The position numbers were made by a program, and so were the translations under genes. A DNA stretch of 64,000 bases from Chiloscyllium plagiosum (taxonomy: Eukaryota), in assembly GCF_004010195.1 (NCBI RefSeq), contig NC_057715.1:24301042-24365041 (forward strand), read 5' to 3'. This document shows, one piece after another, positions 1 through 62,980 of this stretch. Each line of letters opens with the position of its first letter. Positions within the stretch are counted from its first letter, which is position 1. The notes beneath the pieces are model-generated. The model was given only the letters and a program-made list of their open reading frames with translations, was not told where the DNA came from and made no database searches.

Positions 1-222
1 CTCCCCCCTCTCCTCCCTGACCTATCACCTTCATCTCCTTCCCCACTGACCTATTGTACTCTATGCCACTTCTCTCCCACCCCCACCCTCCTCTAGCTTA
101 TCTCTCCACGCTTCAGGCTCTCTGCCTTTATTCCTGATGAAGGGCTTTTGCCCGAAACGTCGATTTTGCCTGTCCTCGGATGCTGCCTGAATTGCTGTGC
201 TCTTCCAGCACCACTGATCCAG
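1..222 (+). mobile_element. Penelope-like element family A, terminal repeat (pLTR) portion, cut by window start
   Basis: Pyrimidine-rich tract, then cctgatgaagggcttttgcccgaaacgtcga and ggatgctgcctga...ccagca. The same block follows the GIY-YIG C-terminus at 1884-2392. Confidence 0.85.
134..161 (+). ncRNA. Minimal type I hammerhead ribozyme core (family A)
   Basis: CTGATGA-A-GGGC(TTTT)GCCC-GAAA-CG-TC; ACGT palindrome in place of stem III; stem I only about 2 bp (tc/ga). Confidence 0.7.
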
Positions 223-242
223 AATGTAATTACCTGACCTAT

Positions 243-375
243 GGCAAAAGTGAGGACTGGAGATGCTGGAAACCAGAGTTTAGATCAGAGTGGTGCTGGA
301 AAAGCACAGCAGGTCAGGAAGCATCCGAGGAGCAGGAAAATCAATGTTTCAGGCAAAAGCTCTTCATCAGGAACC
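243..375 (-). mobile_element. Short Penelope family A insertion (tail + pLTR with decayed hammerhead)
   Basis: Reverse complement of the family A end, flanked by a perfect 15-bp direct repeat aattacctgacctat (228-242, 376-390). Confidence 0.85.
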
Positions 376-390
376 AATTACCTGACCTAT

Positions 391-1880
391 CCCTGCTGCC
401 CTTTTTTTAAATCAAACTCTAGATATCCCTTGACATCCAGGGTTGCCTGGACTTACTACCTTTGCCTTTAAAAGGAACATGCTGGTCCTGAATTTTCACT
501 ATACAACTTTTAAAAGATCCTCACTTGCCAAATGTGGACTTCTCTGCAAGTAATCGCTTCCAATCTATTTTTGCCAGATCCTGTCTGATTATATTGAAAC
601 TGGCCTTCTCCTAATTTAGACACTTAACTTCTGCATTATCTTTAACATTTTCTAAAATGAATTTGAAACCTACAGAGCTTTGGGCACCAACCCTCAAAGT
701 GCTGGCCCACTGTAACTTCACTGTAACTCATGATCAGCTTCAATCCCTCGGATAGGGTCTAGCACTGCCCAACTCTAGCAGGACTATTAAAACCTCTCCT
801 TTAAAATTCCACCCCATCTGATCCATTCACACTAAGGCAACCCTAGTTAATGTTAACAAAGTTGAAGTCCGCAACAATAACCCAGTTCTCTCACACCTTT
901 CTGCAATTTGCCGACATATTTTCTCCTTTATCTCCTTCTGACTATTGGGAGGTCCGTGTAATAATCCCAGCAAACTAACCATCCCTGTTTTATTTCTGAG
1001 CTATAACCAGATGCTCTCATTTGAAGACCCTTCTCGGATCTCCTCACTCATTCTGGCAGTGATGGTTTCCTTTATCAATAATGCAAACTCCAAAGCTCTC
1101 ACCTCTCTTACTTCCCTTCCTCCTCCCCCCGGCCCCTCTCCCAAATCTGAAACTACCTGGAATATTGAGCTGCCTGTCTTGTGCTTCCTACAACCATGTC
1201 TCAGTAATTATAACAATACCATGTTCCCACTTATTGATCAGGGTTCTAAATTCATCCTTCTAACCAGTCAAACCTTTTGCATTAAAATAGGTAGAATTTA
1301 GATTTCTCAACCTCCCATGTTCCTTATCCTGCCCATCTTTCTCCACCTACTATATTCCTAGTATTCTTTCTATATCTGATTGGACCTTGCTCCCAACCTT
1401 GCACCTTTTCTGTGCCCCGTCCCCACTGCCAGAACAATTTAAAGCCTCTCCAACAGCACAACTGCCAGCAAAGATATTGGACCCTTTCCCATTCAGGTGC
1501 AATCTGTTCAACCTGTCGAGGTCCCAACTACCCCAGAAAGCATCCCAGTGATCCAAAAATCTAAATTTCTCTCTCCCACACCATCCCATCACTCATGCAT
1601 TCATTTGACTTATCTCCCTATTCCTATACTCAGTAGTGTGTGGCACTGAAATTATCCAAAGATTACAAACTTAAGTAGTCTTTTCCTTTAAGCTACTATA
1701 TAACTCCCTAAATTTCTGCTCATTTCTTTTTTTATCCATGTCATTGGTACTGACATATAGTATGACTGCTAGCTGTTCACCCTTCCCCTTCGGAACATCC
1801 TGCAGCCACTCTGGGACATCCCTGACCCTGACACCAGCGAGGCAAAGTACTGTTCCAGGGTCTGATTTGCTGGCACAGAA
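391..1880 (-). mobile_element. Decayed CR1 LINE 5' region (ORF1 SGNH-esterase C-terminus and start of ORF2 endonuclease)
   Basis: ORF 1350-1592(-) WCGREKFRFLDHWDAFWGSWDLDRLNRLHLNGKGSNIFAG..GEALN resembles the CR1 ORF1 esterase end; the downstream (lower-coordinate) DNA resembles the CR1 APE region at 53150-53850(-). Confidence 0.7.
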
Positions 1881-1883
1881 CTA

Positions 1884-2392
1884 CCTCTGGGACACCCGGA
1901 CCAACCAATCCAACCACCCTGTGGCTCAACATTTCAATTCCCCCTCCCACTCCACCAAGGATATGCAGGTCTTTGGACTCCTCCATCGCCAGACCACAAC
2001 AAAACGACGGTTGGAGGAAGAGCGCCTCATCTTCCGCCTAGGAACCCTCCAACCACAAGGGATAAACTCGGATTTCACCAGTTTCCTCACTACCCCTCCC
2101 CGCACCTTGGCACAGTCTAATCCAGCGAATTCAGCACCACCTTCCTAACCTGCAATCTTCTTCCTGACCTCTCCGCCCCACCCCAGTCTGACCTATCACC
2201 CTCACCTTGACCTCTTTCCACCTATCACATTTCCGACGCCCCTCCCCCAAGTCCCTCCTCCCTACCTTTTATTTTAGCCTGCTGGACAAACTTTCCTCTT
2301 TCCTGAAGAAGGGCTTATGCCCGAAACGTCGATTCTCCTGTTCCCTGGATGCTGCCTGACCTGCTACGCTTTTCCAGCAACACATTTTCAGC
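1884..2392 (+). mobile_element. 5'-truncated Penelope-like element family A (GIY-YIG endonuclease C-terminus + pLTR)
   Basis: Translation ..HPVAQHFNSPSHS..RRLEEERLIFRLGTLQPQGINSDF, a typical PLE endonuclease end, followed by a C-rich UTR and the hammerhead-bearing repeat. Confidence 0.9.
2303..2330 (+). ncRNA. Minimal type I hammerhead core (family A)
   Basis: CTGAAGA-A-GGGC(TTAT)GCCC-GAAA-CG-TC; only the free N7 position and the loop differ from the 134-161 copy. Confidence 0.7.
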
Positions 2393-4414: not shown

Positions 4415-4640
4415 TGTAATGAGGTCAGCCACGTGGACCTCATGGAATATGAGTTCCTTGATTGGGGCTGTTAATCTGGTCCAATCAGGGAGCCTTGGCT
4501 GACAGCTATGAACAGAAACGTTAGAGGTTCTGTTCACTCTGAGAGCTGGATCTGAGGGAGCTGGACCAGTGTCAAGGACTCTCCATGTGTAAATAAAAAG
4601 TACTTAGGGACAGGATACTAACATCTGTGAAGCTATTTCA
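4415..4640 (+). mobile_element. Probable solo LTR (226 bp)
   Basis: TGTAAT...ATTTCA imperfect terminal inverted repeat, internal CCAAT/ATTGG boxes and AATAAA near 4592; flanks gtgat/gtcct match only partly as a TSD. Confidence 0.55.
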
Positions 4641-6830: not shown

Positions 6831-6879
6831 TAAATGCTTTCTGATCAGTTAATTAATTTTCAAGTACAGTAACTGAGAT

Positions 6880-7095
6880 ATAAGTCAAAGTTGCCGTGTC
6901 CAACTAGACCATAGGACTTCTCTCTTATTAGAAAGTGATGAGAGGTGCTGGTATAACCTAGGGTCACTATGCATTGGTAAAGGGTGAGATTGGAACAGAG
7001 AATCCTTCATGGTAACCACAGCTGGCATGGGAATTGAACCTATATTGTTAGTGTGTCACTCTGTATTATAAAGCAGCCAATCAAGCTAACTGAGC
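6880..7095 (-). mobile_element. Old tRNA-derived SINE
   Basis: Minus strand begins gctcagttagcttg (A-box-like) with a ggttcaattccc B-box near 7030-7041. Confidence 0.5.
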
Positions 7096-8950: not shown

Positions 8951-9308
8951 AGCTTTAGTTTACTTCTGTTTATCAGCAAGAATAGCACCATTTTAGAAAG
9001 TCAAACAATCTATATTGGGTACTCATTGTAATAGGTAAAATCTGAATTGTAAAAGGATGCCACATTTTGCCACAGCACCTCATATGCCATGGGATAATGG
9101 GCAGTGTTATTTTTCTCTTTCAAAACTGTTTGTGGATCTTGTTAAATTGCATACTGCAGCATCTCCAACACAGGAGATGCTGTTTTAATGCTGTGAGTGC
9201 TAGTGTCCTGAAAGCTCTAACCCATTAAGTAGTACTGATCAATGACTTGGAAAGGAAATTGATTGGGAAGATAAGAAAATAAACTTTTAGGGTGACAGAA
9301 ATAAAACA

Positions 9309-9471
9309 AAGTTAAAAAATCACACAACACCAGGTTATAGTCCAACAGGTTTATTTGGAAGTATTAGCTTTCGGAGCACTGCTCCTTCATCAGGTGGCTG
9401 TTGAACTATAAACTGGTGTTGTGTGATTTGTAACTTTGACCACCCCAGTCCAACACCAAAACCTCCACATC
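9309..9471. mobile_element. Penelope family B hairpin insertion; hammerhead core on minus arm (9365-9393)
   Basis: Inverted arms aatcacacaacaccag..tatag/ctata..ctggtgttgtgtgatt plus tail caccccagtccaacacc. Minus strand reads CTGATGA-A-GGAGC(AGT)GCTCC-GAAA-GC-TA. Confidence 0.85.
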
Positions 9472-10850
9472 AAGAATAAAGTAGGGGAACAGGATTGACT
9501 AGATTACTCTACAGAGAGATAACATAGGCTCCACTGAGTGACTATACTTCTATACAGGAAAAGTAAGCTACAAAGATCTGAACTGAATCTACAGCTATTC
9601 TCACTTCCACTTTCAACCATAACCATGGCATTAATTCCAGAACAACTACCGACTGGGGTGTGTTAGAGGATTGAAAGACTCGATTCAAAAACAAGAAGGT
9701 CAATATGAATGAGCCAAACTTGGACTTGTATGTTGCTGAGTCTTAAGGTAAGCTCACACCACAAACACAAATAGATTGAAATTTCATTTGAATTATGAAT
9801 TCAGATTTTGTTGAATTGTGTCAGAAATACCATTATTTGCAACCTTAAAGATAAATGAGTAATAATTTGCCCAATTCATCATTCCTGGACATTTTTATAA
9901 TCCTTAGTGCTTTTAAATAAGTAAAGGAAAAAGACTAAAAACTGATGTTGTTTTAACTTGTGTAGCAAGCCACAGCTACATGAGACTTGAGCATTGAGTG
10001 ATTGGTGCTGTGATTATGATACAAACTGATTGGTAACTTGTGCTATTTAGGAAACTTAATATTAAGGATAAGAGGAAAAAGGGTTTCCAACTCATCGGTT
10101 TTGGTCACAGTCAAATTCACATGCTGAGGAGTGTTAATCCCCAAATCAATACGTTTACTTTTATACAAGCATCTTAATCACAGTAACTGCCCCCTTCTAG
10201 TGCTCTGATGTATGGCATCTTAAAAATATCAAATTGTATTCAATCCTCATTCATTCTTTATTTGAAAATGACAATTTAAAATCTTCAATCAATACACAAC
10301 ACAATATACTCAACAGTTATATTAATTTGCAATCTCATAAGTGTTTGTTTAATTGTTTTCTACCAAACCAATTCCTAGCTGCTTACAATTGTTATTTGAA
10401 ATACATAAATTAATATGAACGTCATGCTTTTGCTTCCTTGATAATGGAACCATCTTTAGATCTGAAATTTACAACTCTAACTGAAATTTCAATTATGTTC
10501 CTAGTCCTGAAAATGTTTCAAGGAAATTTTTTTTAAGTGGATTTGGTTAAGTGAAAGGAATTGTGCGTGTGCCAATGCCAAGAGCAATTTTTTAAAATGC
10601 AACTGAAATCTGTCAACAGGATCACTTCCATGTTTGTGTTATTAGGTACATATAACTCATTAAGTTCTTAAATATGATATAAAAGGTGCCTACTTGTAAC
10701 TGGTACCGATACACAACAACAGTCCACCAGCTACCACCTCCAAACCCCCCCCCCCATCTCAGCTGTAAATACTTTGAGCCAGGGTGAGGGTGAGGGTTTA
10801 TTTTGGTTTATCCTCCCCTCATGCAAAGTTTTTTTTTCACATCTCAACAG

Positions 10851-10961: not shown

Positions 10962-11465
10962 GTGCGTGTATTCAGAATGTACACATGAAGCACATCACTT
11001 GAATATTTAATTGTATTGCCATCACAATATTGCAGAATATCAATTATGTTCATGCAGCTACACAGAGCAGTTCTAAACAATATTCTCATTAACAATTCAT
11101 TTACAGAGCAAGATATACATACCAAAAAAAAATCTAAAAATCTCTGGAATACCTTCCACTAGAAAGCTGTAATTATAAGAAGTTTCTTTCCCATAAAAAA
11201 CAATTCAGTGTTATTGTTAAATGTTTCTGTGGATTCGGATCATTGGTTAAGAACATCTTCAAAACAAGGTTCCATGAGACTTGATGGTGCAATCTGATGT
11301 TTTCACTGTGGATGGAGCATTTGGGAAATTAGTATGATTTTTAGCCCATTGCAGTTAATGGTCTCCTGCTTAGGAGGGACTCATAGAATTGTCACTTTGA
11401 CACAATTCTTCTGGGATTGCTGTGTGTGATCTCCATTGGATGATGGAAAGAATACACTGACAAAC

Positions 11466-13261
11466 TCACTATCAAACTCAACATGGACTACTCTCTACTA
11501 TCTGTCTCATTCTTGGACACATGCATTTCCCTTAAGGATGGGCACCTCAGCACCTCACTCTACCACAAACCCTCAGATAACCTCACAATGCTACAGTTCT
11601 CCAGCTTCCACCCAAAATATATTGAAACAGCCATCCCCTATGGACAAGCCCTACGCATACACAGGATCTGTTCAGATGATGGGCACCTGGAAGTATCAAG
11701 AATGCCCTCATAATATGGGGTACAATACTCAACTCATCGACTACCGGTTCTGATGGGCCACAGCGAGAAACTGTAATGACCTCCTCAGGAGTCTGACACG
11801 AGCTTCATTGTCCAGTACTTCCCAGGAGCTGAAGAACTACACCATGTTCTTTGTATCATGCAACACCTTATCAATGAGGATGAGCTGAGCACCTTCCCAA
11901 GACCTTCCCCATGCCTCCACTTCTCACCTTTAAACAACCACCAAACCTCAAACAGATCATTGTTCACAGCAAACTGCCTGGCTTTCAGGACAACACCATA
12001 CAACCGTGTCATGGGAGACGCTGCAAGATGTGTCAGAGTTTCGACACCAATTTTACCATTACGTGTGGTGACACCTCCCACTGTGTATGTGGCAGGTACT
12101 CATGCGACTCAGCCACCATTGTCTATTTCATATGCTGTAGGTAAGGAGGCATGGTACATTGGTGAGACTGAGCAGAGGCTACGGTAATGGATGTATGGAC
12201 ATCATACAACAATCAACAGACAGGAGTGTTCTCTCCCAGTAGGAGAACACATCAGCGGTCCGGGACATTCGACCTTGGACCTTCGGGTGACCATCCTCCA
12301 AGACGGACTTTGGGACAGGCAACAACGCAAAGTGGCCAAGCAGAGGCTGATAGCCAATTTCGGTACCCATGGGGATGGTCTCAACCGGGACCTTGGGTTC
12401 ATGTCACACTACAGGTGACCCCACTGCACTACACACACACATAGACACAGACACACACAGACACACACACACTTACAAACAGACACACACACCTACACAC
12501 ACAAACTCCTATAGACACGCACTCCTAGAGATGCACACACACTCCTACAGACCCATACACTTACACAGACCCTCTCTCATGTACAAGCTCTCTCTCATAT
12601 GCTCATGCATGCACTTCCACACTCATACGCACACATCATCCTCTCCCAGACTTATACCCCTTTACACTCACACTCACAAATATACACACACTCTCACAGA
12701 CACTCATAACTCTGTGCACCCCCCCCCCCCCCCCCCACACACACACCCACATGCACACATACATCTAGGTTTGTGGGGTAAATGTGTACTTGCAGAATTA
12801 CATTTTATTTTGCTCAAAAACTGCATGAATCTATGTAAGATTCTATAAATTCATTCAGAATTAGTCTGAACATTGTGGCACAGACAGTCTCACACAGGGC
12901 ACCTCACACCTTCAATGCATTATCTGGGCAGACATGACACCAATTGTTAAAGTTCACTTGAGAATGTAACATTAAAAAGGTTCTGTGATTTACATATGAA
13001 AGAACTAAGACCAACATGTTCTTTCTAAAAGATGAGAGACTTAGCAAACAATCCAGGTATTTTTCAATATATAATTTCAGTTACATCACACTGTAAACTT
13101 TTGCTATAAATTCTGTGTCTCACGATCTTATGCCCATAACCACCTGATGAAGGAGCAATGCTCCAAACGCTAGTGCTTCCAAATAAGCCTGTCAGACTAT
13201 AACCTGGAGTTGTGAGATTTTTAACTTTGTACACCCCAGTCCTGATTTGCACCTCCAAATC
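11466..13261 (+). mobile_element. 5'-truncated Penelope-like element family B (Neptune-type): RT C-terminus, Cys-rich linker, GIY-YIG endonuclease, 3' UTR and pLTR; frameshifted
   Basis: VSFLDT..STSLYHKPSD..FSSFHP..AIPYGQALRIHRICSD; PCHGRRCKMC..YSCDS..IVYFICC..WYIGET..GLNRDLG. Ends in the family B repeat with a decayed hammerhead at about 13144-13172; flanked by a 9-bp repeat ctgacaaac (11457-11465, 13262-13270). Confidence 0.92.
12431..12762 (+). repeat. Degenerate (CA)n-rich tract and poly-C within the Penelope 3' UTR
   Basis: Directly visible acacacac/agacacac runs and a C-run near 12719-12736. Confidence 0.9.
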
Positions 13262-14049
13262 CTGACAAACGAGACATCCTGTTTACAAAAAAAAACTAAC
13301 CTTGAAGCTATTTTGCGTCGGCCTTTCTACCAATGTCCCAATGCAGTTGCAGAAGACGATCGGGAACACCCAATGGGAACCCAGGTCTGGTATATTTCAG
13401 TCCCAAGTCAAATAGCAACATGATGCAGCCCTTGTAATCTCATAACCTCAACTCATAACTGCTATGCTTACCAGATAGCATTCTGATCTTGAACTTAGCA
13501 GTTGGCATGTGAAAAATAAAGTGCATTTGGCAGCAGTGCTAGCTCATAATACCTCTAGTTTGGTTATTTTTAAGAAGAATTTCAAAACAGCCACCACAAT
13601 GAAAGGCAACTTGTTTAAGCCCAATGCTGATATCTCTATCTTCATAGTTCCCATTATGATTAAACAAACATAGTTTTTGCATTTCAGCTGGTGGTGAATT
13701 TAACATGAGCACTTACTGGATGAACAAATGTCAGTCACCACTAATGCCTGTTGGTTTACTTGCCAATGGAGCTCACTATTGGAATTTAATTGAACATCTG
13801 CTCTTCCCTGGAGTAGCTGTAACGTTTGCACATAAATAACTGCCAGTAACATTAGTACCACTATTATTTTGACACCAAGTGATGGGACAATTTACTTTGC
13901 CAGAAATAGTGATTCACAGTCAAATTCTGTGATGTGGTCTAAACAGCTTTATGGCATCACTACACCACTCTTACCTGGAATAACAAAAACACTGCTGCTA
14001 CATATGTAATATTTGGGAAGTATCCCACTTTGGTAGATGGATTAATGTG

Positions 14050-15390: not shown

Positions 15391-16258
15391 TACTTACTAA
15401 AATGTGCATCTGATTCAACTATGAAAGTTCATTTGTCACTTGCTTTGTGCTGATTTGAAAGGGCGTTATTTCATTTAAACCGCTCTGTATTAGAAGGATA
15501 CTTGTGTTAGCTTGTTATTGAATGCTCCAGAAACAAACTCATTACCCCATCTATTCACACATATTAAATAACAAACAGATGGATGGCTGTAACAGGCTGC
15601 CAAGATTTCCATGAATGTTCTATTTAAAAAAAAACAAAGATGTTTTATTTAGATTTGTTCTTTGTTTCTTTCTGTTTTTCTGGCAGATGGCAGCTGGTTC
15701 CTGATGTTTGTACTGGCACGGATGAAATAACTGTCTGTTTGCATGAAACCTGATAACTCTTTGAACTGTTGCTTTTATGATTTTATTTAAGGAACTATAT
15801 TATTTGATAAATTAATTTACTAAAACAAAGATTTCCACGTTCGAAGAAAGAAGACAAGCAGATAATTAATCTTATGGTGGTCAGCTTTAGAAGAACATGG
15901 TTGCTTTGTCAATATCTGGCCAACAGGTCTGTTCATATTTCAGTATGTATAAAGTCGACTTACTTAATTCCAGAAAAATGCTGCTAAATGTTGCAGGGTA
16001 TTTGAGAACAATTTTCATTGAAACTGCACAAGGTCGCAATAATGTCCTTTTGCCATGGTGCTATTTCAAATCAAACTAAACCAATGGCTAAATTCCCTGT
16101 AGGATTAATATATTTTTAATCCAATATGAAAATATATTTACCATAAAATAGGTCGACATAATTCTGAGCTGATGTCATTAACTACCATGAAGCTAAAGTT
16201 TATTTGAGATTCATTGCCTAATTTGGTCATTGATGAAAGTCAAACTAGGAGTAACATT

Positions 16259-16469
16259 GTTAAAAATCACACAACACCAGGTTATAGTCCAACAGGTTTA
16301 ATTGGAAGCACACTAGCTTTCGGAGCGACGCACCTTCATCAGACAATCACCTGATGAAGGAGCGGCGCTCCGAAAGCTAGTGTGCTTCCAATTAAACCTG
16401 TTGGAATAACCTGGTGTTGTGTGATTTTTAACTTTGTACACCCCAGTCCAACACTGGCATCTCTGAATC
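16259..16469. mobile_element. Penelope family B hairpin insertion, young
   Basis: Near-perfect inverted arms of about 84 bp (16259-16342 vs 16351-16432), a single-copy tail of about 37 bp, and a perfect 12-bp TSD aggagtaacatt (16247-16258, 16470-16481). Confidence 0.93.
16348..16382 (+). ncRNA. Best-preserved minimal type I hammerhead ribozyme (family B)
   Basis: cac-CTGATGA-A-GGAGC(GGC)GCTCC-GAAA-GC-TA-gtg: stem I cac/gtg, 5-bp stem II, AGCT palindrome for stem III, predicted cut after CUA (16379). Confidence 0.8.
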
Positions 16470-16897
16470 AGGAGTAACATTAGTATCTTTCAGAAGATGT
16501 ATCCCCTGGCTGGGTACGGTTACCAACACACAATGGATTGTGTTAATTCCATGAGTATATAAACATTGATTAGGGTTCTTATGGCACACTGGTAGTGTCC
16601 TTACCTCTGAGGCCATGTTCAAGTGCTACCTGCTCCAAAGGTCTGTCAAAACATCTCTGAATATATTAATTAAAAATACATGTAATTATTGATAATCTAA
16701 TGATGTCTCTGCTTGTTCAGCCGCATTCATCAGATGGATTATAGCTATATACCTAAAGATCCTCTATTCAGTGATTTGATTATGACTGTCTGACCATCCA
16801 TATATCCACTACAAGAAAAACTGCAAATGAGCTATGAAGACATCAAATGTTGGAGACAATTACTGATGGCCATGATCTCTGTCATCCAACCCTTTGG

Positions 16898-28970: not shown

Positions 28971-29095
28971 AAACAAAAACCAAAAGAATTTTGGATGCTG
29001 TAAATCAGAAACAAAAACAGAAATTGCTGGGAAAGCTCAGCAGGTCTTGAAGCATCTGTGGACCGAAATCAGAATTAATAAGTCCTCAGAACTCT
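28971..29095 (-). mobile_element. Penelope-derived short element family C
   Basis: Reverse complement of 29373-29502 and 41030-41130 (gaaacaaaaacagaaattgctgg..ctcagcaggtc..gcatctg). Confidence 0.7.
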
Positions 29096-29372
29096 TTCTC
29101 AGAACTCATTAGATTAGATTAATAAGACATATTTAGTAAAACTCAGTGAGAGATATCTCTAAGCCTCATAGAGAGAACACCTCTATGAAACCTGATGAAA
29201 CTGATTCTGAGGCAAAACAACTTCAGGTATTAATTTGAGTTCAGGGAAGCATTCTGTCTGAGGCCTTTGTTAACATAGAACCCCGGGCAACGTGAAACAG
29301 ACTTATCTGAAATGTGTCAATCCTGTTGTCAGTGTTTAAGGTGAGAACCAAGTTATTCAAGTAGGAAATAGA

Positions 29373-29502
29373 TTCTGATGAAGAGTCACTGGACTCAAAA
29401 CATTAGTTCTGTTTTCTTCCCATAGACACTGCCAGACTTCCTGAGTTTCACCCGCAATTTTTTGTTTTTGTTTCAGATCTCCAACACCTGCAATTATTTG
29501 CT
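29373..29502 (+). mobile_element. Penelope-derived short element family C with decayed hammerhead (29375-29404)
   Basis: CTGATGA-A-GAGTC(ACTG)GACTC-aAAA-CATT, followed by a body and tail with the same layout as families A and B. Confidence 0.72.
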
Positions 29503-38081: not shown

Positions 38082-38258
38082 GAGAAAGTGAAGATTGCAG
38101 ATGCTGGAGATTAGAGTCGAGAGTGCGGTGCTGGAAAAGCACAGCAGGGCAGGCAGTATCCAAGGAGCAGGAGAATCGAAATTTCGGGCATAAGCCCGTC
38201 CTCAGAAATTCCTGATTCTCCTGCTCCTTGGATGTTGCCTGACCTGCTGTGCTTTTCC
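38082..38258. mobile_element. Penelope family A hairpin insertion (tail on left)
   Basis: Inverted arms ctggaaaagcacagcagg../..cctgctgtgcttttcc; flanks aggcccatacaccag (38067-38081) and aggtccgtacaccag (38259-38273). Confidence 0.85.
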
Positions 38259-39939
38259 AGGTCCGTACACCAGCCACAATACTGGCCATTTCCCTCAGAT
38301 CAAATTCATCACCATAATGTTAACAGACCTTCAAAATATTCTTTAAAATATGGTGATTTTTCAGTGCAAGGATACTGACTGGCAACTTTTAAATGTTAAG
38401 ACAGGAGTCTTTATTGCATTCATTGAGGAGCAGACTAGTGAATGACAATGAAACTAGCAGATGTCTTTGTAGTTTTAAAGTTATTTTCAGTTGTTTAAAT
38501 TAATTATCACGATGAATAATGTTCCTGTATCTTATTCTTTTCATTCTTAGATTCATCCTGGGATATGAATGTCACTACCAATGCCAGCACGTGTTGCCCA
38601 TCCCTAATAGCCTTTGAACTGAATGGTTTGCTAAGTCATTTTAGGGAGCAATTAAGAGTGTACCTTGTTATTTTGAATTTCAAGTCACATGTAGGCCAGA
38701 CCAGATAAGAATGGCACTTCTTCTTCCCAAAACAATTATATTCTCTGCACTGTACTAAATTCCCCCTTCAGCTGCAAAGCCCCTCAGTAGGCTATTATAT
38801 TGAACAGGTCATGTTTCCTTTATTAATAGAGAAAATAATTGATGCAAAAAATTATGCTTTGATATGATAACAACTGATACTAATGTCCATGATGAATCAT
38901 TGTTCTTCTCGATTTCTTTTTTTAATTTCTTTAATTTGTTTAAAAAGACTTGTTGGCATTACTGGAGGAATTGAGTTTGGAAGAGTTATTGAGTCTGATT
39001 GAGTGAGAAACAGGCTTAACATTTCATTAAATCTTGCCAGCTTTATGTCTATGTGCATAATACTTAGACAGCCATCCATCAGTGACTTTAATAATTCTTC
39101 TTGACATACCTATACTTCAATTGATTTCAGAGAGAAAAGTATTGGGGAACAGAAACCAATAATGTGTAGCAAAAACAAAAGGATAAATGAAAGTTAATGA
39201 CAACTCTTTGCAATAATTTATTTTTAGGAGTTACTAATTGCAAGCCTCCTTCTTTAATTCTTTTGCAAATAATTGAAATTGATTGCCCCATTATGAAAAT
39301 ATGATTCGTCGCCATTCATTATTAATTTTCAACCTGACACATCTAATTACATGCAAAATTTTCTCAGTTAAGTAAAACATTAAAAGCAAATGTGCTTCTT
39401 ATACTGCATCTACAAGGTGGGGCCATTTTGCCTGAAGGACAAATTGGGAAGATTGGTAATTTCAGTAGAAATAATGCTGTTGAAATCTTACATTCTTTAC
39501 ATATCTAATAACCAAAGTCTCCAGTGATTATGTGGACTGAACTGTGGGATTTGCTGCTAAAATCAAATTATTTAACTCTTTTAACTGCTTTCTGGGGTTT
39601 ACTGAGATGATTCGGGATGTTTACAGTAAAGACTGGTAGGGGAGAAGTAGGTTTCAGTTGATGAGACACTGGCACTGTACTGGAGAAAGTGGAATCTGTA
39701 CAAATGTCACAATCTACAGCAGAATCGTGTTGGAGCTAATGTTGTAGTGAACCACATAATAAGAAACATAGAGGGAGCGATAAACCAAATAGTTGGGGCA
39801 AGGGGTCAATTTTAGAAGATAAGGCAATTCAAAGATTAGTGACAAGACAAGAGATAAAGGTGTTAATATGGCAATTGATAAATAGACCATAAAAGGAAGA
39901 GATAGAAAGTACATATCTAAATCTAAATCAACAGAGAAG

Positions 39940-41029: not shown

Positions 41030-41132
41030 GTTCTAATGAAGAGTCACTAGACTCAAAATGTTCACTCTGCTTTCTCTCAACAGATGCTGCCAAACCTGCT
41101 GAGTTTCTCTAACAATTTCTGTTTTTGTATTT
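41030..41132 (+). mobile_element. Penelope-derived short element family C, decayed hammerhead
   Basis: ctaatga-a-GAGTC(ACTA)GACTC-aaaa-tgtt, then cagatgctgccaaacctgctgagtttct. Confidence 0.7.
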
Positions 41133-50989: not shown

Positions 50990-53850
50990 AGAACAAAAGA
51001 GAAGTACAGCAATGGGCAGGCCCTTTTGCCCTCCAAGCCTGCGCTGATCATCATGTCCCAACTAAACTAAAATACAAACCTTCTGCCCTCATTCTGTCCA
51101 TATCCCTCTATTCTTTCCCGTTCATGTAACCATCCAGATGCCTCTTAAATGTCACCAAAGTGCCTGCTTCTACCAGCTCTTCTGCCAGTGCCTTCCAGGC
51201 TCCTACCACTCTCGTACATCTCTATTAAACTTTCCCCCTCTCACCTTGAACCTGTACCCCCTTGTAATTGAAACTTCAACCCTGGGAAAAAGCCTCTGAC
51301 GACCTACCCTATCTATGCCTCTCATAACTTTGTATCATTTGGAGGTGCCGGTGTTGGACTGGGGGTATACAAGGTTAAAAATCACACACCACCAGGTTAT
51401 AGTCCAACAGGTTTATTTGGAAGCACTGGTTTTTGGAGCGCTGCTCCTTCATGAGGTGGTAAGGACCAGCACTCCAAAAGCTAGTGCTTCCAAATAAACC
51501 TGTTGGACTATAACCTGATGTTGTGTGATTTTTAACATTATTTTGTTAACCTCTATCAGGTCACCTCTCTGCTGCCATATTTCCAACAAAAACAATCCTA
51601 CTCTTTTTAACCTTTCCTCAAAGCCAATGTCCTCGAGACCAGACAATGTATTGGTGAACCTTCTCTGCATTCTCTCCAAAGCTTCCACACACTTCTGGTA
51701 GTGTGGCGATCAAAACTGTACACAATACTCCAAATAAGAGTTTTATACAGCTACAACACGGTTTGTCAACTTTTGAATTCCATGCCCAAGCTGATGAAAG
51801 CAAACATACCATATGCTTTCTTAATCACCTCAGCCACCTGTGTTGCCACTTTTAAGGAACTGTGGACCTGCACCAGATCTTTCTGTATTTTAATGTTCCT
51901 AAGGGTTCTGCCTTTTACAGTATAATTCACACCTGAATTTGATCTTCCAAAATGCACTACTTCGCATTTGCCTGGATTAAATCCCATCTGCCATTTCTGT
52001 GCCCAAATTACCAATCTATCTATATCCTGTTGTATCCTTTCATAATCATCGGCCCTATCAGCAACTCCACCAATCAGACCACCCACATTTTCCTCCAGAT
52101 CATTTATATATACTACAAACAACAGAGAACATAAGACTGATACCTGTGAAATACCACTAGTTACCAGTCTCCACTCTGAAAAACATTCTTCCACCGCTAC
52201 CCTCTGTCTTCTATGACCAAGCCAGTTTTGTATCCATCTCACCAGCCCACCCTGAATCCCATGCGATTTTAGTTTTTGTACCAATCTGCCATGTGGAACT
52301 TTATCAAATGCCTTACTGAAGTCTATATAAACTACATCTATAGCCTTTCCCTCATCAATTATCTTGGTCACCTCTTCAAAAATTTCAATCAGGTTGGTGA
52401 AACATGACCTTCCTCATACAAAACCATGCTGCCTGTCACTAATTAGTCTGTTTTTTTCCAAACATGTGTTTATCTTGTCCCTCAGTATCTTCTCCAAGAG
52501 CTTCCCCACCACAGACATAATGCTCACCAACTTATAACTTCCTGTATTATCCCTTCTTCCTTTCTTAAACAAGGGAACAAAATTGGCTAATCCTCAGTCC
52601 TCGAGAGCCTCACTTATGGTCAAAGAGGATGTGAAGATATCTGCTGATGCCCCAACTATTTCTTCCCTTGCCTCTCGTAGTAACCTGGGATAGATCTCAT
52701 GTAGCCCTGGAGACTTGTCTACCTTAATGCAATTTAGGACACCCAAACCATCCTCCTTCGATATATTGACATTCACTTGAGCATTCACACACTCATTCCT
52801 GACCTCAACATCAGTCATGTCCTTCTCCTTGGTGAATACCAATGCAAAGTACTCATTAAGGATGTCTCCTACTTTCTGTGGCTCCAGGCATAACATCCCT
52901 CCTTTGTCCTTGAGTGGACCCACTCTTTTCCTTGCTACCCTCTTTCTTCTGATACATGAATAAAAAGCCTTGGGATTCTCCTTGACCCTGTTTGCTCATG
53001 ACATTTCACAGCCCCTTTTAGCCTTCATTTTTTCCATATTTAAGTTTCTTTCCAATTTCTCTATACTCCCACAGAGTTTATAGCTGCCTAGATCTATCAT
53101 GTGCTTTCTTTCTTGCTTTGACTAAGCTTGCAATTTCCCTTGTCATCCATGATTCCTAAATCCTGCCATTCCTATTCTCTTGTTTTGCAGGAAAATGTAT
53201 GTCCTGCACTTTAATCAATTGGTCTTTAAAAGACTTGCCCGCAAATAACTGCTCCCAACCCACTTTCTCTGGTTTCTGTCTAATTTGGATACAATTGGCC
53301 CTTGCCCAATTAAGCACCCTCACCAGAGGGTCACTCTTGTCTTTGTCTATGACTACTTGAAATCTTATGGAGTTATGGTCACTAAGCCCAAAATGGTCTC
53401 CTACTGAAACATCAATCACCTGTCTTGGCTCATTCCCCAATACCCAACTCTAGCATGGCCTCCTCTGTGTTGGATTGTCAGCATACTGTCTCAAAGAGCC
53501 CTCCTGGACACATCTAACAAATTGGTCTCCATCTGAGCCCCTGGCTTTAAGGGAGGGAGTCCCAGTCAATAAGAGGCAAGTTGAAGTTAGCCACCAAAAC
53601 TACCCTGCTTTTTTCACACTTTTCCAGTATCTGACTACATATTTGCTCCTCTGTCTATAGAACGCTCCTAACATTGTGATTTCACCCTTCCTCTTCCTGA
53701 GCTCAACCCATAATGCCTCACTGCAAAATCCCTCCAGTGGCTCCTCCCTCAACACAGCTGTAATGTGATCCCGAATTAGCAATGCAACTCCCCCACCCCT
53801 TTTGTTTCCCTTTCTGTCTCATCTAAAACAATGATATTCTGGAAGATGCC
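50990..53850 (-). mobile_element. CR1 LINE ORF2 (APE + RT + 3' end), decayed
   Basis: ORFs 53600-53782 (EALWVEL), 53156-53440 (SDHNSI), 52594-52923, 51766-52371 (YIDFSKAFDKVPH..YINDL..WQMGFN) and 51449-51688 (LERMQRRF). Confidence 0.95.
51334..51536. mobile_element. Penelope family B hairpin inserted into the CR1
   Basis: Tail ggaggtgccggtgttggactgggg, then inverted arms gttaaaaatcacac../..gtgtgatttttaac; CR1 sequence resumes on both sides. Confidence 0.88.
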
Positions 53851-56002: not shown

Positions 56003-58359
56003 ATCTTGACTTTAAAATAATTAGAGAAATTATGTAGTTGACTCTTTCCAGTTGCTCTGGTGTGCATATTATCTTAATGTAGCATGCTCAAAATGTAAAG
56101 TTATTTAACTTCCACCAAGGAGAAGAAGTGTTTGCAATATGGGCAAAGACTCTTCTTTGACCAGAGTTAAAATATGAGCAATCTTAATTTTTCTAAGGGC
56201 ATTCCCTTCTACAGAAACTTTATTCACATTTCTGATTAAGCAGGGCATGATTCAGACTATACCAGGCACAAATGGTAAATATCAATTTCTTATTGCAATT
56301 GAAGCATGACGCTTAATTAATTTCAGAATTGATTTTAAACTTATGTAGGTCAAAGATAATTGTCTACAATTAAAATAAATGTTACAGTTGAAAATTAAGC
56401 ACTAAAATAGTTTTCACAATTATTTTGTTTCATTAAAAGGTCCATTCTTCCACTCCAGATCCCAGTTCTGATACTGGGAGAATGAAATGGAGACATGGTC
56501 CAGTTAAAACATTACATCCTGAATCTTGTTTTAACACTAGTTCAGACTCGTTACTTTCATTGGCAGCACATACCATAAAAAGGCAGAAGAATTTCACTGG
56601 ATGGGAGAAGTCTTGTTCACTGCCTGGACAGCAGACTTGGGTGGGGTCATAAAAGCAGGAAATGCTAGCAATATTCAACAGACATCATCTGTGCAGAAAG
56701 AAAGAGCACCAACCTTTCAGATCAGTGAACTTGCATCAGAACTCAATTCCCAGAAAGAAAAGCAAATAAGACTTAGTCCAAACCATCTTGCATCAAAATG
56801 GGCCATCACTATGACCACTACTTCATTTCCAAGTTTTATTGATTTTCTCCTTTGGTTTGTGGGATAATTGCCTGTCCAGGCTTGCTGATTTTGTTCCAAA
56901 CATTTATTATTCTATAATTGCTGAGTTGTCTGTTCCACTGAATTATCCACTAAACAGTGAAGGTGAAATTTTCCAAATTATTTAATCAGGAACTTCAGCA
57001 AATGAAACTATTTTTACACAATAATCTAGAAACTGGATTAGGAAGCTTCAGTTTTACAGTGAACAAATGGTTGCTGGAATCTCAATATGACAGGAGACAC
57101 ATTAACAGGAACCATTCAATCTGTGCTCAGGATTTGCTGTATGCCATATTGGCTATAGTGCTTGGCTGAATCAGGCATTAGGCTCATTGCCACAGACAAT
57201 CGGGCCTACTGACAGAGGTCTTTTAGTATATGTTCTCAATTGACTGCAGCATGAGCACTGCAGATTTCTCAAGTGAACAGCATCCAGCCATGGCAAAAGA
57301 TGAGGAGATTTCTATTTTTCTCTTGGTGAAAGTAGGCGAATCCTGGTGCAGTCTGGAGGCCAGGTGCTTGGGCGACTGTTTGGGAAGGTCTGTAATGTTG
57401 GACTTGTTAATTTATTTATTTTTCTAATGTTTTCCTAAGAATTGGCACTTCAGAATCTATAAGTAGGCGCCTTTGAACCTAAGATGGTGGCTTGTAAACT
57501 TTTCACTGTACTCATGTGACAATAAATCGAATTCTAATTCTGCTCTCCAGATTATTGCAGTGGCTGCATTTTAAAATTCATTCAAGACTTAGTTAGATAA
57601 TTTTTGGACAGACAGAGGAGTGAAATTTTATGTGACCCGAGCAGGAAATAGGATTTGAGATCACAACCATATAAGCCACAGTCTTATTGAATGGTGGAGA
57701 AGGTTAGAAGGGCCAATTGACCTACACTTACCTCTACGTTCTTACCTTCTGATGTAATGTAAGCATCTTATGTGTATAATAACTCTGCGACTCTTTATGC
57801 CACCAGGACAAAACAGCATCCACTGGCAAATGTCTCCAAACTGTTAAGATTGGCTTGCTTCAAATTATCTGAATGCAGAACCAGAACTAGCAACTGTGCC
57901 CCTTCCCACACTCTTCTGACTAATCCCTACCTACACCCATCCTCTCAGATTTCGGATTGATCTAATGATAGTACTTGAAAACTGATTTTCACCTTTCTCC
58001 TGCCTGATGATGCTTGCCTTTTGACATTCAGTTGGTGCTGCAAAATGCCATGGTGGAAAGTAGGGGTTAGGTAAGGTATAGGCCTCTTGCTCATCACTTT
58101 TCACAGGACAGCTGACAGTTTCCACAGGCTTTGGTCAAGCCAATTTCCAAGCCACAATGCAAACAGTGAACAAAGTTGTTTCACTTTAGGCCACGCTGCT
58201 TTTTTCAGCTTTCCTAAAAACTGACAATGCCTTTCTTTACAATTAATTAGGTAAAAACATAGATCCATTTGATAAATTATAAATTTGGACAGCTACAATT
58301 ATTAATGTCACTGAAATAAAATCTTGCTGATAGACTTAGGATCCTAAGTCATGCCAGGC

Positions 58360-59240: not shown

Positions 59241-59486
59241 AAATTTGGGGGCAATGATAGCCTGGTGGCATTATTGCTGGGCTGTTACTCCCGAGACCCA
59301 GGTAATGCACTGGGAACATGGGTTGGAATCCTGCTATGGCAGATGGTGGAATTTAAAGTCCATTAAAAAATCTGGAAGCTATCATCCTTATTTTGTCTGA
59401 TCTACGTGTGACTCCAGATCCACAGCAATGTTGTTGACTCTTAATTGCTGTTTGGGCAATTAGGGATGGACAGTAAATGCTGCCTG

Positions 59487-59716
59487 TGAAGATTAGAGTG
59501 GTGCTGGAAAGGCATAGCAGGTCAGGCAGCACCCTAGGAGCAGGAAAATTGACATTTCAGGCAAAAGCCCTTCATCAGGAATGCTCCTCATTCCTGATGA
59601 AGAGCTTTTGACCAAAACGTCGATTCTCCTGCTCCTCGGATGCTGCCTGACCTGCTGTGACTTTCCACACCACTCTAATCTTTAATCTCCAGCGTCTGCA
59701 GTGCCCACTTCTGCCT
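59487..59716. mobile_element. Penelope family A hairpin inserted in a SINE tail
   Basis: Inverted arms of about 93 bp around ctcct (59584-59588), a tail, and a perfect 15-bp TSD agtaaatgctgcctg (59472-59486, 59717-59731). Confidence 0.92.
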
Positions 59717-59797
59717 AGTAAATGCTGCCTGGCCAGTGATGCCTCATCCTGTGAATGAATAAAGAAATTCACCAAAATTCCTTAGACAGAACCTTAC

Positions 59798-59965
59798 ATC
59801 TTCCAAAAAAAAAGTCCTGCTGTAAATGGTGTTTTTGCCATTCTTCAAATAATGATTCTGTGGTTTTCTCCATATTGTTCGACAGTATGACCAACAAATT
59901 GATAGCAGGTGGTACAGGACAGAATGTAGAATATTGCTTTTCTGCGGAGGTAGTAGACATTATAC
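59798..59965 (-). CDS. Candidate minus-strand exon (168 nt, phase 1-1): IMSTTSAEKQYSTFCPVPPAINLLVILSNNMEKTTESLFEEWQKHHLQQDFFFGR
   Basis: Acceptor gatttctatag, donor gat|gtaagg, open frame, length a multiple of 3; no homology recognised. Confidence 0.35.
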
Positions 59966-60664
59966 CTATAGAAATCTAGCACATAAAACAGATGGTTAAA
60001 CATCACAGAACAACATGTAGCACTGCGTGGAATGCAATCACTTCTTAAAACTTGTTGTGAAGCCACCAGTGAGGCAGATTATAAAGACTTTGCTCACAGC
60101 AACGAAAAAGCTTTTACAAGGAAAGATAAATCTGATTGTTGTTCTCTGTGCCATCACTGCTATTACTGTTCATTTCTCCTTGGGGAATGTAAACATGCAT
60201 TTAACATTCTATTTCAGCTGTTAAATAGCAATAGGAATTAACAGAGAAACTACAGAGGACAAGAATGTTTAGAATAATTTCACACAACTATTCAATCAGC
60301 AGAATATGTTCATAAAGGCACAGAGGAAATTTCAAGCTGTCTCAGTGCCCAAACTTAAAAGAATAATAGACTAGTAAATAGAAACATCTTCTCTGCTTTC
60401 TCCAACTGTACCCTATACATTAATAATTCCACAGAAGTTTGCTGAATCAGGAGCGTATTACTTAAACAAGATCATTCCACATTGAAAGCAATTTAGAAAT
60501 GCAAAGGGTACCCTGAACAGTCAATCAGTCTCAATTTTATAAAGCTTTATATGCATCAAAACAGAGCTAAAATGTTTTTGCCAGGAAAGGGAGTATCATT
60601 GAGTTTCCTAATACCTTGAGTTGTGCTGACAGCATATGTTTACGTGAAACAGTAATACTCTTTG

Positions 60665-61650
60665 TTTATTCCTTCAGGGCATGTGGGTGTCACTGGCTAG
60701 GCAGCCTTTATTGCCCATGAGTAATTGCCCTGGAGAAACTGGTAGTGAGTTGCCTTCTAAACCACTGCACCATGATGTTAGGAAGGGATTTTGACTCAAC
60801 ATCAGTGAAGGAACAGCAATATATTTCCAAATCGGGATGGTGAGTGACTTGTGTTGATCCTACAGGTGGTAGTGCTCCCATGCAATTACGTCTGTTGCCT
60901 TTCTAGATAAAAGACATCACAGCCTTGGAAGGTGTTTTTGATGGATTCTTGAAGAGATATTGTAATGCATCCTCGTAGACAGTGCATATTGTTGCTACTG
61001 TGCACCAGTGGTGAAGGGAGTGAAATTTGATGGTTTGATTAGGGAACAAATCAAGTGGACCACTTTGTCCTGGATAGTTTCAAGCTTCTTGAGTCTTGAT
61101 GAAGCTGCACTTGTCCGGGCAAGTGGAAAAATTCCATTACACTCCTGACTTGTCCCTTGTACATCATTAGCTAAGGTGGATGAACATTAGGGAAACGACT
61201 TGAGTTACTCACTATAGAATTCCGAGTCTCTGACCTGTTCTTGTAACTACAGAGTTGGTATGGTTAGTCCAATTCTGTTTCTGGTCAATGGGAACCCCAG
61301 GTCCTTAATACTGAGGGATTCAGTGAGGGTAATGTCTTTGAAATTCAAGGGGAAGATGGTTGGATTCTCTCTTGTTGGAGACGGTCATTGCCTGGCACTT
61401 GTGTGGCATGAATGCTACCTTCCACTTATCAACACAAGTCTGTATGTTGTCCGAGACTTGGTGCATATGGACATGGGCTATATCGGTATCTGAGGAGTCA
61501 TGAATTTGTATAGAATGCTGTGCAACCATAGGTAAATTACCCTACTTTGGCCTCGTGGTGGAGAGAAGGTGAAGCAGCTGAAAATGGTGAAGGACACTTC
61601 TTTGAGACATTCCTTTAGCAATGTCGTGGATCGAAGATTATTGACCTCCA
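60665..61650 (-). mobile_element. LINE family B RT C-terminus and 3' end
   Basis: ORF 61320-61529 DNIQTCVDKWKVAFMPHKCQAMTVSNKRESNHLPL; tail is the reverse complement of 37790-37850. Confidence 0.85.
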
Positions 61651-62470
61651 ATAACTGCCATGTGGTTGACTATCAATTACCCTCTAAAATGGCCTATCAA
61701 GCCATTCAGTTCAAAAGAATTTGGAATGGACAACAAATACTGACCTTGCCAGAGATGACCACATCCCATCACAGAATAAATTAAAGGAAAAAAAGGTAAT
61801 TGTCTTCAGGATTTTCCTGAATATTACTTCAAATGAGTGTACTATATATGATCATGACTATTCTGCTTTACTGAGGACTATTCCTTCTGCTTTTCTGTCC
61901 ATGAACCAGATTTTTTGTTCTGCTGTCAAAGTGCTTTTGCCCCCTGTCTCAAGTTGTTCAGCTTCTGCTGCTTTCTTCTATGATCTCTTTTTTTGTCCTC
62001 TAACAGTCCAAGTTTGCATCGCTATAATGAAATGTCTTTTCTAAGTCTTCTTTATATGAATAGTTTTGCCAGTAAATATCCCTTATTTAATAGCATGCGC
62101 TTATAACTTAGAGAGGCTAATTCCAATAATATATTATTGTCCTTTAGCGAAATTGCTGGTTAGACTGCGCACCACCACCCCCCTCCCAATTTTCCATTTG
62201 CCTGAGAGTGAAGTGGAGAAGTTCTCAATTGCTTGATACCTGTTTTTGCCATGAACTTGAATTCCTCATTCACAAACTGTGATCCATTATCCAAAAGTAT
62301 TGCATGTGGAAAACAATGTGTTGTGAAAATTTACTTCAATGCTGTAATCAATGAGTCCGCAGCTGTCTTGTGGTCTTGAAGCTTCGATCCAAGTATGGAA
62401 CGTTTCTTTCCATCTAAGTCAAATAAAATGTAATAGTAGCCTGCGTCATGATCTATATGAAAAATTTGAA

Positions 62471-62758
62471 GCACGGTGTCACAGTGGTTAGCACTGGCCG
62501 CCTCACAGCGCCAGAAACCTGGGTTCAAATCCTGCCTCGGGCAACTGTCTGTGTGGAGTTTGCACATTCTCCCTGTGTCTGCGTGGGTTTGCTCCGGTTT
62601 CCTCCCACAGTCTAAAGATGTGCAGGTTAGGTGATTTGGCCATGCTAAATTGCCCATGGTGTTAGGTGCAGGGGAATGGGTCTAGGTGGGTTGCTCTTCG
62701 GAGGGTCGGTGTGGACTTGTTGGGTCGAAGGGCCTGTTTCCACACTGTAATCAATCTA
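62471..62758 (+). mobile_element. HE1-type SINE nested in the Gypsy element
   Basis: gcacggtgtcacagtggttagcactg..gggttcaaatcc..tgtgtggagtttgcac..gaagggcctgtttccacactgta. Confidence 0.93.
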
Positions 62759-62849
62759 CATTAAGTGCTTTTTAGGTATTTGATTATTAATGACACAAAT
62801 AATATTCTCTATTTCTTTCTAACTGCCTGACCACCAGATAGACTGATGA

Positions 62850-62980
62850 AGCCCTGATGAAGGGCTTTTGCCAGAAACATCAATTTTCCTGCTCCTCGGA
62901 GGCTGCCTGACCTGCTGTGCTTTTTCAGCACCACTCTAATCTTGTCTCTGATCTTCAGCATCTGCAGTCCTCACTTTTGC
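62850..62980 (+). mobile_element. Short Penelope family A insertion nested in the Gypsy element
   Basis: Starts 4 nt before CTGATGAAGGGCTTTTGCCAGAAAC and ends in the tail; flanks caccagatagactgatga and caccatataaactgttga (18 bp, 3 mismatches). Confidence 0.85.

What the first reader, a model, noticed from the sequence alone, without database searches (positions are those of the whole stretch)
134..62980. Three families of hammerhead-ribozyme-bearing Penelope elements with covarying stem II
Seen: about 12 insertions carry CTGANGA-A-stem II-GAAA-NN-TH. Stem II differs entirely between families but stays paired: A GGGC/GCCC (134, 2303, 14690-14750, 59555-59620, 62854), B GGAGC/GCTCC (9365, 13144, 16314, 16351, 51430) and C GAGTC/GACTC (29375, 41034). 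Stem III is replaced by a 4-nt palindrome that also covaries (ACGT in A, AGCT in B). Families A and B are physically attached to GIY-YIG coding remnants (1884-2392, 11466-13261). Established: minimal type I hammerheads in Penelope-like element pLTRs that cleave as dimers are published (Cervera and de la Pena 2014). Inference: these are three shark lineages of that system, at roughly one insertion per 5 kb here. I cannot say whether the families are already catalogued.
Basis: partly seen in the sequence, partly recalled or inferred. Interest (0 to 1): 0.7.

Follow-up and report, generated by a model that had tools for sequence, protein, structure and literature searches.

The report
Penelope hammerhead stubs recording RNA fate
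These short repeats are end-pieces of Penelope-type jumping genes carrying an already described tiny self-cutting-RNA motif; most short copies were likely copied from the uncut, capped front of the element's RNA, while a few U6 RNA copies joined exactly at the predicted cut suggest that the motif does sometimes cut in living cells.

Summary
The motifs are real but mostly decayed. The window has 20 arms at 14 sites; 6 arms keep an intact core, against 0.005 per shuffle. They are minimal type I hammerheads in the terminal repeats (pLTRs) of Neptune-type Penelope-like elements, a published class. No close tandem dimers occur; six sites are head-to-head pairs. In a 1.16 Mb genome sample plus the window, 52 of 55 A/B pairs join one tailed and one untailed arm, usually inside one target-site duplication. 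Family A 5' ends pile up just before the hammerhead, where 61% have a non-element G (about 25% expected). The predicted cut shows no pile-up, so short copies likely ran off capped, uncut RNA. Yet U6 is joined exactly at the predicted cut at 4 of 46 U6 loci. Family B RNA is polyadenylated 27-28 nt past the cut, upstream of both element ends. This scan reported these points earlier on other pieces of this genome; U6 was their lead, retested here. Verdict: new members of a known kind, with a testable genomic record of in vivo cleavage.

The parts
1..234 (+). Family A 3' end (3' UTR + pLTR, runs off the window start); intact hammerhead, C3 at 134, predicted cut 161|162
243..375 (-). Family A solo short copy with tail, inserted at the end of the previous copy; 15-bp TSD (228-242 / 376-390); two extra G between TSD and element start; decayed core (C3 at 370).
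1875..2392 (+). Young family A 5'-truncated copy: C-terminal half of the GIY-YIG endonuclease, 3' UTR, pLTR without tail; intact hammerhead, C3 at 2303, predicted cut 2330|2331; 96-97% identical to the best other copies
9305..9473 (.). Family B head-to-head pair (- arm with core at 9393, no tail; + arm truncated, tailed)
11441..13263 (+). Family B 5'-truncated copy: RT thumb, Cys linker, GIY-YIG endonuclease (stops and frameshifts), 3' UTR, tailed pLTR; hammerhead at 13144 with broken GAAA
14619..14846 (.). Family A head-to-head pair (C3 at 14712- and about 14728+), one arm tailed; TSD from 14608 / 14847
16258..16471 (.). Family B head-to-head pair (C3 at 16342- and 16351+; the + arm is intact and tailed); 11-bp TSD 16247-16257 / 16470-16480
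28993..29104 (-).
29373..29499 (+). Family C short copy, stem II intact, GAAA and palindrome decayed
38083..38267 (.).
41031..41130 (+). Family C short copy, core decayed
51334..51540 (.). Family B head-to-head pair, both cores broken, - arm tailed
56647..56741 (-). Weak, old C-like copy (score 22, below the counting threshold)
59483..59716 (.). Family A head-to-head pair (C3 at 59578- and 59594+), decayed; 11-bp TSD 59472-59482 / 59717-59727
62852..62980 (+). Family A solo short tailed copy, stem II with a mismatch; 10-bp TSD with 1 mismatch

Best explanation
The motifs are minimal type I hammerheads in the terminal repeats of several Neptune-type Penelope-like retrotransposon families, and most short copies are likely DNA run-offs from the capped, uncut 5' end of the element's RNA, while the ribozyme likely cuts a minority of transcripts in vivo. 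Steps. (1, shown) Each family ends 65-100 nt past the predicted cut at one of two fixed points, the pLTR end or a 30-40 nt tail. (2, inferred from Frangieh 2024) These are the two internal reverse-transcription start sites. (3, inferred) Transcription starts about 4 nt before the hammerhead core, so priming on the 5' pLTR of the mRNA gives a 90-130 nt product with an intact hammerhead and often a cap-derived G. (4, anatomy shown, mechanism inferred) Both nicked target strands are often extended, one from each start site, giving head-to-head pairs in one duplication. (5, inferred) A cut leaves a 5'-OH that an RtcB-type ligase can join to U6, and these chimeras were then reverse-transcribed. The dispersed copies are dead by-products: solo or opposite-strand, mostly decayed, with no dimer partner nearby.
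For: PLE identity: RT (Pfam RVT_1, E 1.8e-7, 31.5 bits over cut-off 29.6) in an 839-aa frame ending at an A hammerhead inside a 14-bp TSD; Cys linker and GIY-YIG in A and B. Structure: family consensuses keep stem II fully paired, 18 of 20 stem I cells paired with several pair types per position, palindrome C-G vs G-C, and U3-A8 in 6 of 6 family D copies. Two 3' ends. Pairs: 52 of 55 A/B pairs are tail + no tail, against about 50% expected (p 6e-13); TSD score >=8 in 42 of 58 pairs against 9 of 300 mismatched flanks. 5' ends of 170 A arms: 40 extend 59 nt or more upstream of C3, 2 end at -58..-14, 69 at -13..0, 59 further in. Genome-wide, 6,037 of 9,899 copies with a non-element base before the start have G; G lies outside the TSD in several solos. 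Junctions at the cut are about as frequent as 2 nt further on (ratio 1.2, interval 0.7-2.2) and about 10-fold rarer than at the start. U6: 4 of 46 loci (5 junctions) join family A exactly at the cut base, none elsewhere in the pLTR.
Against: No start site or cap was measured: RNA lays show no pile of molecule starts or ends, at the start or at the cut (fragmented poly(A) library, 2% read, one run laid). Part of the G excess comes from inverted partner arms (10 of 21 G loci were called head-to-head, more on inspection), and in 5 of 7 independent solo G loci with a TSD the G is in both TSD copies, so target preference contributes. The pile-up is clear for A and C, broader for B, and absent for family E. 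U6 also joins the endonuclease-coding region at 2 loci and a SINE head at 18 loci, so U6 fusion needs no ribozyme; only the best 48 U6 matches were scored. No full-length element with the pLTR joined to the ORF start was recovered. No cleavage assay exists for these families.
Confidence: 0.7

Rival explanations
1. The 5' pile-up is not a transcription start: reverse transcriptase stalls at the folded hammerhead or at bound protein, and the G excess reflects endonuclease target preference and microhomology with the inverted arm.
For: Many G's are shared with the TSD or the partner arm. Stem II is the one hairpin that folds stably.
Against: Ends pile on the far (5') side of stem II, not at its 3' foot, and drop about 100-fold per nt upstream of -13 (4.9 vs 0.04 ends per nt). 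Extra G or GG lies outside the TSD at window 374-375, L235, L240, L112 and L083. TSDs of long copies that I inspected do not generally end in G (not counted formally).
Confidence: 0.15
2. The short copies are a separate non-autonomous ribozyme element (retrozyme- or MITE-like) that multiplies by itself through hammerhead-cut circles.
For: Very high number of 90-250 bp units. Animal retrozymes are described as PLE derivatives (bioRxiv 10.64898/2026.07.22.740005).
Against: No tandem direct arrays: 0 direct neighbours within 60 nt, 7 same-strand neighbours within 400 nt. Units are not cut-to-cut. Junctions differ from pair to pair, and short and long copies share the same two 3' ends.
Confidence: 0.07
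3. The hammerheads are conserved only as a protein-binding or promoter fold and do not cut in vivo; the U6 joins arise by template switching or by nuclease cuts at an exposed bond.
For: Low in vitro activity (PMC4209133); cleavage dispensable in vitro and no RNA-seq ends at the cut for the anole element (PMC11167929). No spike of ordinary junctions at the cut. Main family A has a U-U mismatch in a 4-bp stem I, and family C has a GUU site.
Against: All 4 U6-pLTR loci join at the scissile bond with no T-run microhomology; a join one base earlier would need C-to-T decay in all four (15 of 87 copies show it). The U3-A8 swap keeps a catalytic-core pair.
Confidence: 0.15

Closest known systems
[quoted passage not shown]
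   Same: Type I core, extra base between 9 and 10.1, G10.1-C11.1, no helix III with palindromic 15.2-16.2, several covarying families per genome, mostly single motifs, some opposite-strand pairs, a U3-A8 variant, and a proposed cut-and-circularise role
   Different: No shark or chimaera term in the two supplement files searched (file 1 unreadable). Stem I here is only 3-4 bp. About 200,000 descriptor-intact motifs are extrapolated here against 4,000-9,000 in coelacanth and Xenopus (descriptors differ). No end mapping or in vivo evidence there.
Anolis Poseidon PAc, Frangieh et al. 2024 (PMC11167929; parts 1-2 of 4 read)
   Same: Hammerhead in the pLTR, two internal RT start sites explaining the tail, both target strands cut and extended, uncut RNA as main template, protein-assisted cleavage in vitro
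   Different: Poseidon clade; no reads found at the cut; no analysis of run-off copies, cap G, pair asymmetry or U6 chimeras in the parts read
EN+ PLE insertions with inverted pLTR, tail and TSD (Arkhipova 2013, PMC3846280; Craig 2021, PMC8557442; passages read)
   Same: Head-to-head inverted 5'-truncated copy, tail at one end, TSD around the whole unit, Cys linker in Neptune/Nematis
   Different: Here most such units are ORF-less 150-250 bp pairs, and the asymmetry is nearly strict (52 of 55). Arkhipova explains them by self-priming on an antisense template.
U6/LINE-1 chimeras made by RtcB ligation (Moldovan 2019, PMC6789731; abstract and outline read)
   Same: U6 3' end (cyclic phosphate) joined to a 5'-OH retrotransposon RNA, then reverse-transcribed
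   Different: L1 joins are variable; here the pLTR joins fall on one predicted ribozyme bond
Animal non-LTR retrozymes (bioRxiv 10.64898/2026.07.22.740005; part 1 of 5 and passages read)
   Same: PLE-derived type I hammerheads; one chondrichthyan sampled and positive
   Different: Retrozymes are tandem direct repeats; these are solo or inverted

Membership tests
Minimal type I hammerhead (min-HHR) | Core CUGANGA ... GAAA ... UH with paired stem II opening G10.1-C11.1 | tested here: met
   6 window arms intact; all family consensuses
Minimal type I hammerhead (min-HHR) | Helix III reduced to a palindrome at 15.1-16.1 | tested here: met
   ACGT in A, D, E (and C before CpG decay), AGCT in B
Minimal type I hammerhead (min-HHR) | Short helix I with compensatory changes | tested here: met
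   18 of 20 cells paired over 5 family consensuses, with different pairs per family; main A has one U-U mismatch
Minimal type I hammerhead (min-HHR) | Self-cleavage at the predicted bond | not testable with these tools
   Only indirect: U6 joins at the bond at 4 loci; no read-end pile
Rfam hammerhead families | Score at a hammerhead covariance model | tested here: not met
   No hammerhead hit at E<=1 in the window; these motifs lack helix III
EN+ Penelope-like elements | RT followed by a C-terminal GIY-YIG endonuclease in one ORF, with DKG motif | tested here: met
   A: L185, L162; B: L013, L016, L021 and window 11441-12420. The GIY-YIG call is by motif; Pfam returned no GIY-YIG family on the pieces scanned
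EN+ Penelope-like elements | pLTR ends with optional 30-40 nt tail, inverted 5' copies, TSD | tested here: met
EN+ Penelope-like elements | Partial tandem (pLTR-ORF-pLTR) full-length copy | tested here: inconclusive
   None among loci L146-L210; all are 5'-truncated and many have N gaps
Neptune/Nematis clades | CX2-5CxxC linker between RT and EN | tested here: met
   Present in A and B
Neptune clade proper | Placement in an RT phylogeny with reference elements | not tested
   No Repbase or Dfam references available
Non-LTR retrozymes | Tandem direct repeats, each with a hammerhead | tested here: not met
   0 direct neighbours within 60 nt

The most novel reading that the evidence does not exclude
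The genome records a whole two-route Penelope cycle. The mRNA starts at the hammerhead and, in family B, is polyadenylated before the reverse-transcription start sites, so uncut mRNA can only give short strong-stop-like stubs. Long, coding copies need the two terminal hammerheads to dimerise and cut, and an RtcB-type ligase to close a circle that rebuilds one complete pLTR. U6 chimeras are the by-product of that ligation. The ribozyme would then be the switch between dead stubs and productive transposition.
Probability: 0.3. Interest if true: 0.8.

Novelty: new member of a known kind. Interest (0 to 1): 0.52.

Why it matters
What PLE hammerheads do is an open question: Craig 2021 calls their function unclear, and Frangieh 2024 found cleavage dispensable in vitro and no RNA ends at the cut. 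This genome holds an estimated 800,000 insertion sites (extrapolated), whose ends act as a large natural record of the RNA templates. They point to uncut capped RNA as the usual template for short copies and to real cleavage in a minority of molecules. That gives exact positions (start, cut, poly(A) site, two priming sites) for direct tests.

Tried and rejected
Rfam scan: no hammerhead model hit; the miRNA hits are the head-to-head palindromes, all under their gathering scores. Pfam on GIY-YIG fragments: nothing; PDB sequence search with the 839-aa frame: 0 hits. Search for a full-length tandem element: long 'open frames' were mostly N gaps; walking 5' ended in a proline-rich repeat; no shared sequence downstream of tails among 93 A, 42 B and 32 C tailed arms beyond a few chance or duplicated flanks. 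MFE folding of four monomers: stem II forms, the hammerhead fold does not, z -0.1 to -2.2. MAFFT alignment of 18 copies put family B one column out of register, so no pair count was run on it; covariation rests on anchored consensuses, with no R-scape-type test. No RNA holder listed on record as RNA; run X20 laid 0 reads. Lunse et al. (dimer cleavage) is not held; seen only as a citation in PMC6765202. Fifteen other window ORFs have no Pfam family above cut-off; no host gene was identified. Literature searches: hammerhead + Penelope + shark gave 4 irrelevant papers; U6/RtcB/Penelope/hammerhead gave 1 irrelevant paper; untemplated/cap/strong-stop gave none relevant; polyadenylation/pLTR gave only the known papers; all judged from listings. 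Dfam and Repbase could not be searched, so cataloguing of these families is unknown.
Full report
1. Observation. The window is G000:C6:24301042-24365041 of an unnamed 3.56 Gb genome. A strict descriptor finds 6 hammerhead cores in it, against a mean of 0.005 in 200 shuffles. Profile searches find 20 arms at 14 sites (A 10, B 7, C 3), six of them head-to-head pairs. Rfam has no hammerhead hit.

2. Identity. The window's A remnant (1875-2392) encodes the C-terminal half of a PLE endonuclease and is 96-97% identical to the best of 4,230 candidates. Longer A copies carry the DKG motif, the RT core, a CX4CxxC linker and the GIY-YIG region. L185 has an 839-aa frame with Pfam RVT_1 (E 1.8e-7), an A hammerhead at its end and a 14-bp TSD. 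The B remnant (11441-13263) and its relatives (about 85% identical, 6,852 candidates) show the same layout. A and B frames are 35% identical over the aligned part. The linker marks Neptune/Nematis (PMC8557442, passages); I ran no phylogeny. C and D long copies lie behind PLE coding remnants in 3 of 7 and 1 of 2 cases.

3. Density. In 120 stretches of 10 kb taken at fixed positions on large scaffolds (1.159 Mb without N) there are A 160, B 81, C 43, D 7 and E 20 arms, or 258 sites, one per 4.5 kb. The window is therefore typical. Extrapolation gives about 790,000 sites and about 205,000 descriptor-intact motifs (67 hits in the sample; 0, 0 and 1 in three shuffles). One A subfamily alone has 35,644 exact 25-mer matches.

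4. Covariation. From anchored consensuses: stem II is fully paired in all five families, and pair 10.2-11.2 switches jointly inside A (87 G-C, 7 A-T, 6 other) and inside C (14 G-C, 8 A-T, 4 other). Only arms with a recognisable core entered these counts. This supports selection on a hammerhead fold in the parent elements.

5. 3' ends and pairs. Every family ends either at the pLTR end or after a 30-40 nt tail, the PLE signature that Frangieh et al. traced to two internal RT start sites (PMC11167929). Close same-family neighbours are head-to-head in 59 cases, tail-to-tail in 2 and never direct. Of 55 A/B pairs, 52 join a tailed and an untailed arm, although 54% of solo arms are tailed. TSDs flank 42 of 58 pairs against 9 of 300 control flank pairs; one pair at a locus edge was dropped. 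L073 shows the same for two long arms. Each pair is thus one event using both start sites. The anatomy is known qualitatively (PMC3846280; PMC8557442).

6. 5' ends. Of 170 A arms, 69 start within 13 nt upstream of C3, only 2 start in the next 45 nt, 40 extend further and 59 start inside the motif or beyond. C is similar, B broader, E shows no pile-up. The modal start is the A of TC|ATTCC, which resembles an initiator (consensus recalled); D. virilis Penelope has an internal Inr/DPE promoter (PMC2377424, passages). RNA reads also leave the element most often at that base (95 loose ends), which reflects passenger copies rather than starts. Genome-wide, 6,037 of 9,899 copies with a non-element base there have G. 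Some G's come from inverted partner arms or lie in the TSD, but several lie outside it, including window 374-375. Junctions exactly at the predicted cut are estimated at about 1,070 (1,068 matches; 15 of 30 inspected are true junctions), at the control position 2 nt further about 890 (1,668; 11 of 30), and at the start about 11,000. Short copies therefore mostly come from uncut RNA.

7. Evidence for cutting. Following earlier scan notes, I searched U6 (48 best matches scored) and fetched all 48 as 46 loci. At L335, L352, L362 and L369 the U6 3' end is joined to family A exactly at the first base after the predicted cut, and nowhere else in a pLTR. In L362 both arms of a head-to-head pair carry the same U6 join, which suggests both arms came from one RNA. 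Two other U6 copies join the endonuclease-coding region and 18 precede a SINE head, so U6 fusion is not specific. RtcB joins U6 cyclic phosphate to 5'-OH L1 RNA (PMC6789731, abstract), and a hammerhead cut leaves a 5'-OH.

8. Poly(A). In run X19 (same species label as the best DNA holder; 2% read), 972 reads carry a non-genomic poly(A) behind L033:4984-4985. That is 27-28 nt past the predicted B cut and 12-13 nt after ATTAAA; same-strand depth falls from about 1,370 to 240 there. The hexamer is in 65 of 79 B arms, 6 of 141 A arms and no C or D arm. The site lies upstream of both B ends, so a polyadenylated B mRNA keeps the priming sites only at its 5' pLTR. Host transcripts using the site as passengers could give the same reads.

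9. Mechanism. Best reading (0.7): capped mRNA starts at the hammerhead, internal priming on its 5' pLTR gives the stubs, two-strand priming gives the pairs, and a minority of RNAs is cut and ligated. How long copies arise is open: read-through RNA, a template jump over the repeated end, or the cut-and-circularise route that Cervera and De la Pena proposed. No full-length tandem was recovered to test the dimer geometry.

10. Novelty. Hammerheads in PLE pLTRs, their covariation, inverted pLTRs and tails are published. My searches found no paper on shark PLE hammerheads, cap-marked run-off copies or U6 joins at the cut (listings only). The scan has noted the same points on other pieces of this genome and on other genomes; those notes are not independent support. 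Verdict: new member of a known kind, interest 0.52.

Noticed in passing
L039:345-487, L039:1453-1600, L050:5585-5736, L065:1270-1562, L072:1276-1423, L077:6368-6524: Family D, not in the window: U3-A8 core swap in 6 of 6 parsed copies, self-complementary 4-bp stem I
   Followed up: partly
L049:9725-9876 and 19 other arms: Family E, not in the window: 6-bp stem II, an ATG in the core opening a short frame (Poseidon-like by analogy to PAc, untested), no head-to-head pairs and no 5' pile-up
   Followed up: partly
window 29410-29440, 41070-41100 and C/D copies: In C and D a pyrimidine tract and CAG precede a conserved ATG about 20 nt after the predicted cut, resembling a splice acceptor at a possible ORF start; A keeps the ATG mostly without the AG
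   Followed up: no
L333, L340, L341, L345, L350, L353-L360, L363, L366, L372-L374: 18 of 46 U6 loci are followed by the head of a tRNA-like SINE; L336 by a tRNA-like sequence
   Followed up: partly
L192-L205 (G000:C1:136150183-136153037): Tandem array of a 213-bp unit that includes the N-terminal coding region of family A, next to an A pLTR
   Followed up: no
window 21042-21368, 49632-49995, 54849-55059, 55698-56018, 62470-62758: Five copies of a SINE about 300 bp long (resembles the shark HE1 SINE; name recalled, untested)
   Followed up: no
window 22300-25100 (+), 51766-53026 (-), 36997-37850, 58516-61450: LINE reverse-transcriptase remnants (RVT_1 hit at 51769-52413; CR1-like by recall)
   Followed up: no
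window 63523-63828 (-): RNase H fragment of an LTR retrotransposon (PF17919, PF17917)
   Followed up: no
window 16898-17112 and 17518-17732: 215-bp direct duplication, 99.5% identical; recent duplication or assembly artefact
   Followed up: no
L033:5042 in run X19: 285 reads with A-rich loose ends behind the B tail end (agreement 0.53): possibly a second poly(A) site or A-rich flanks
   Followed up: no
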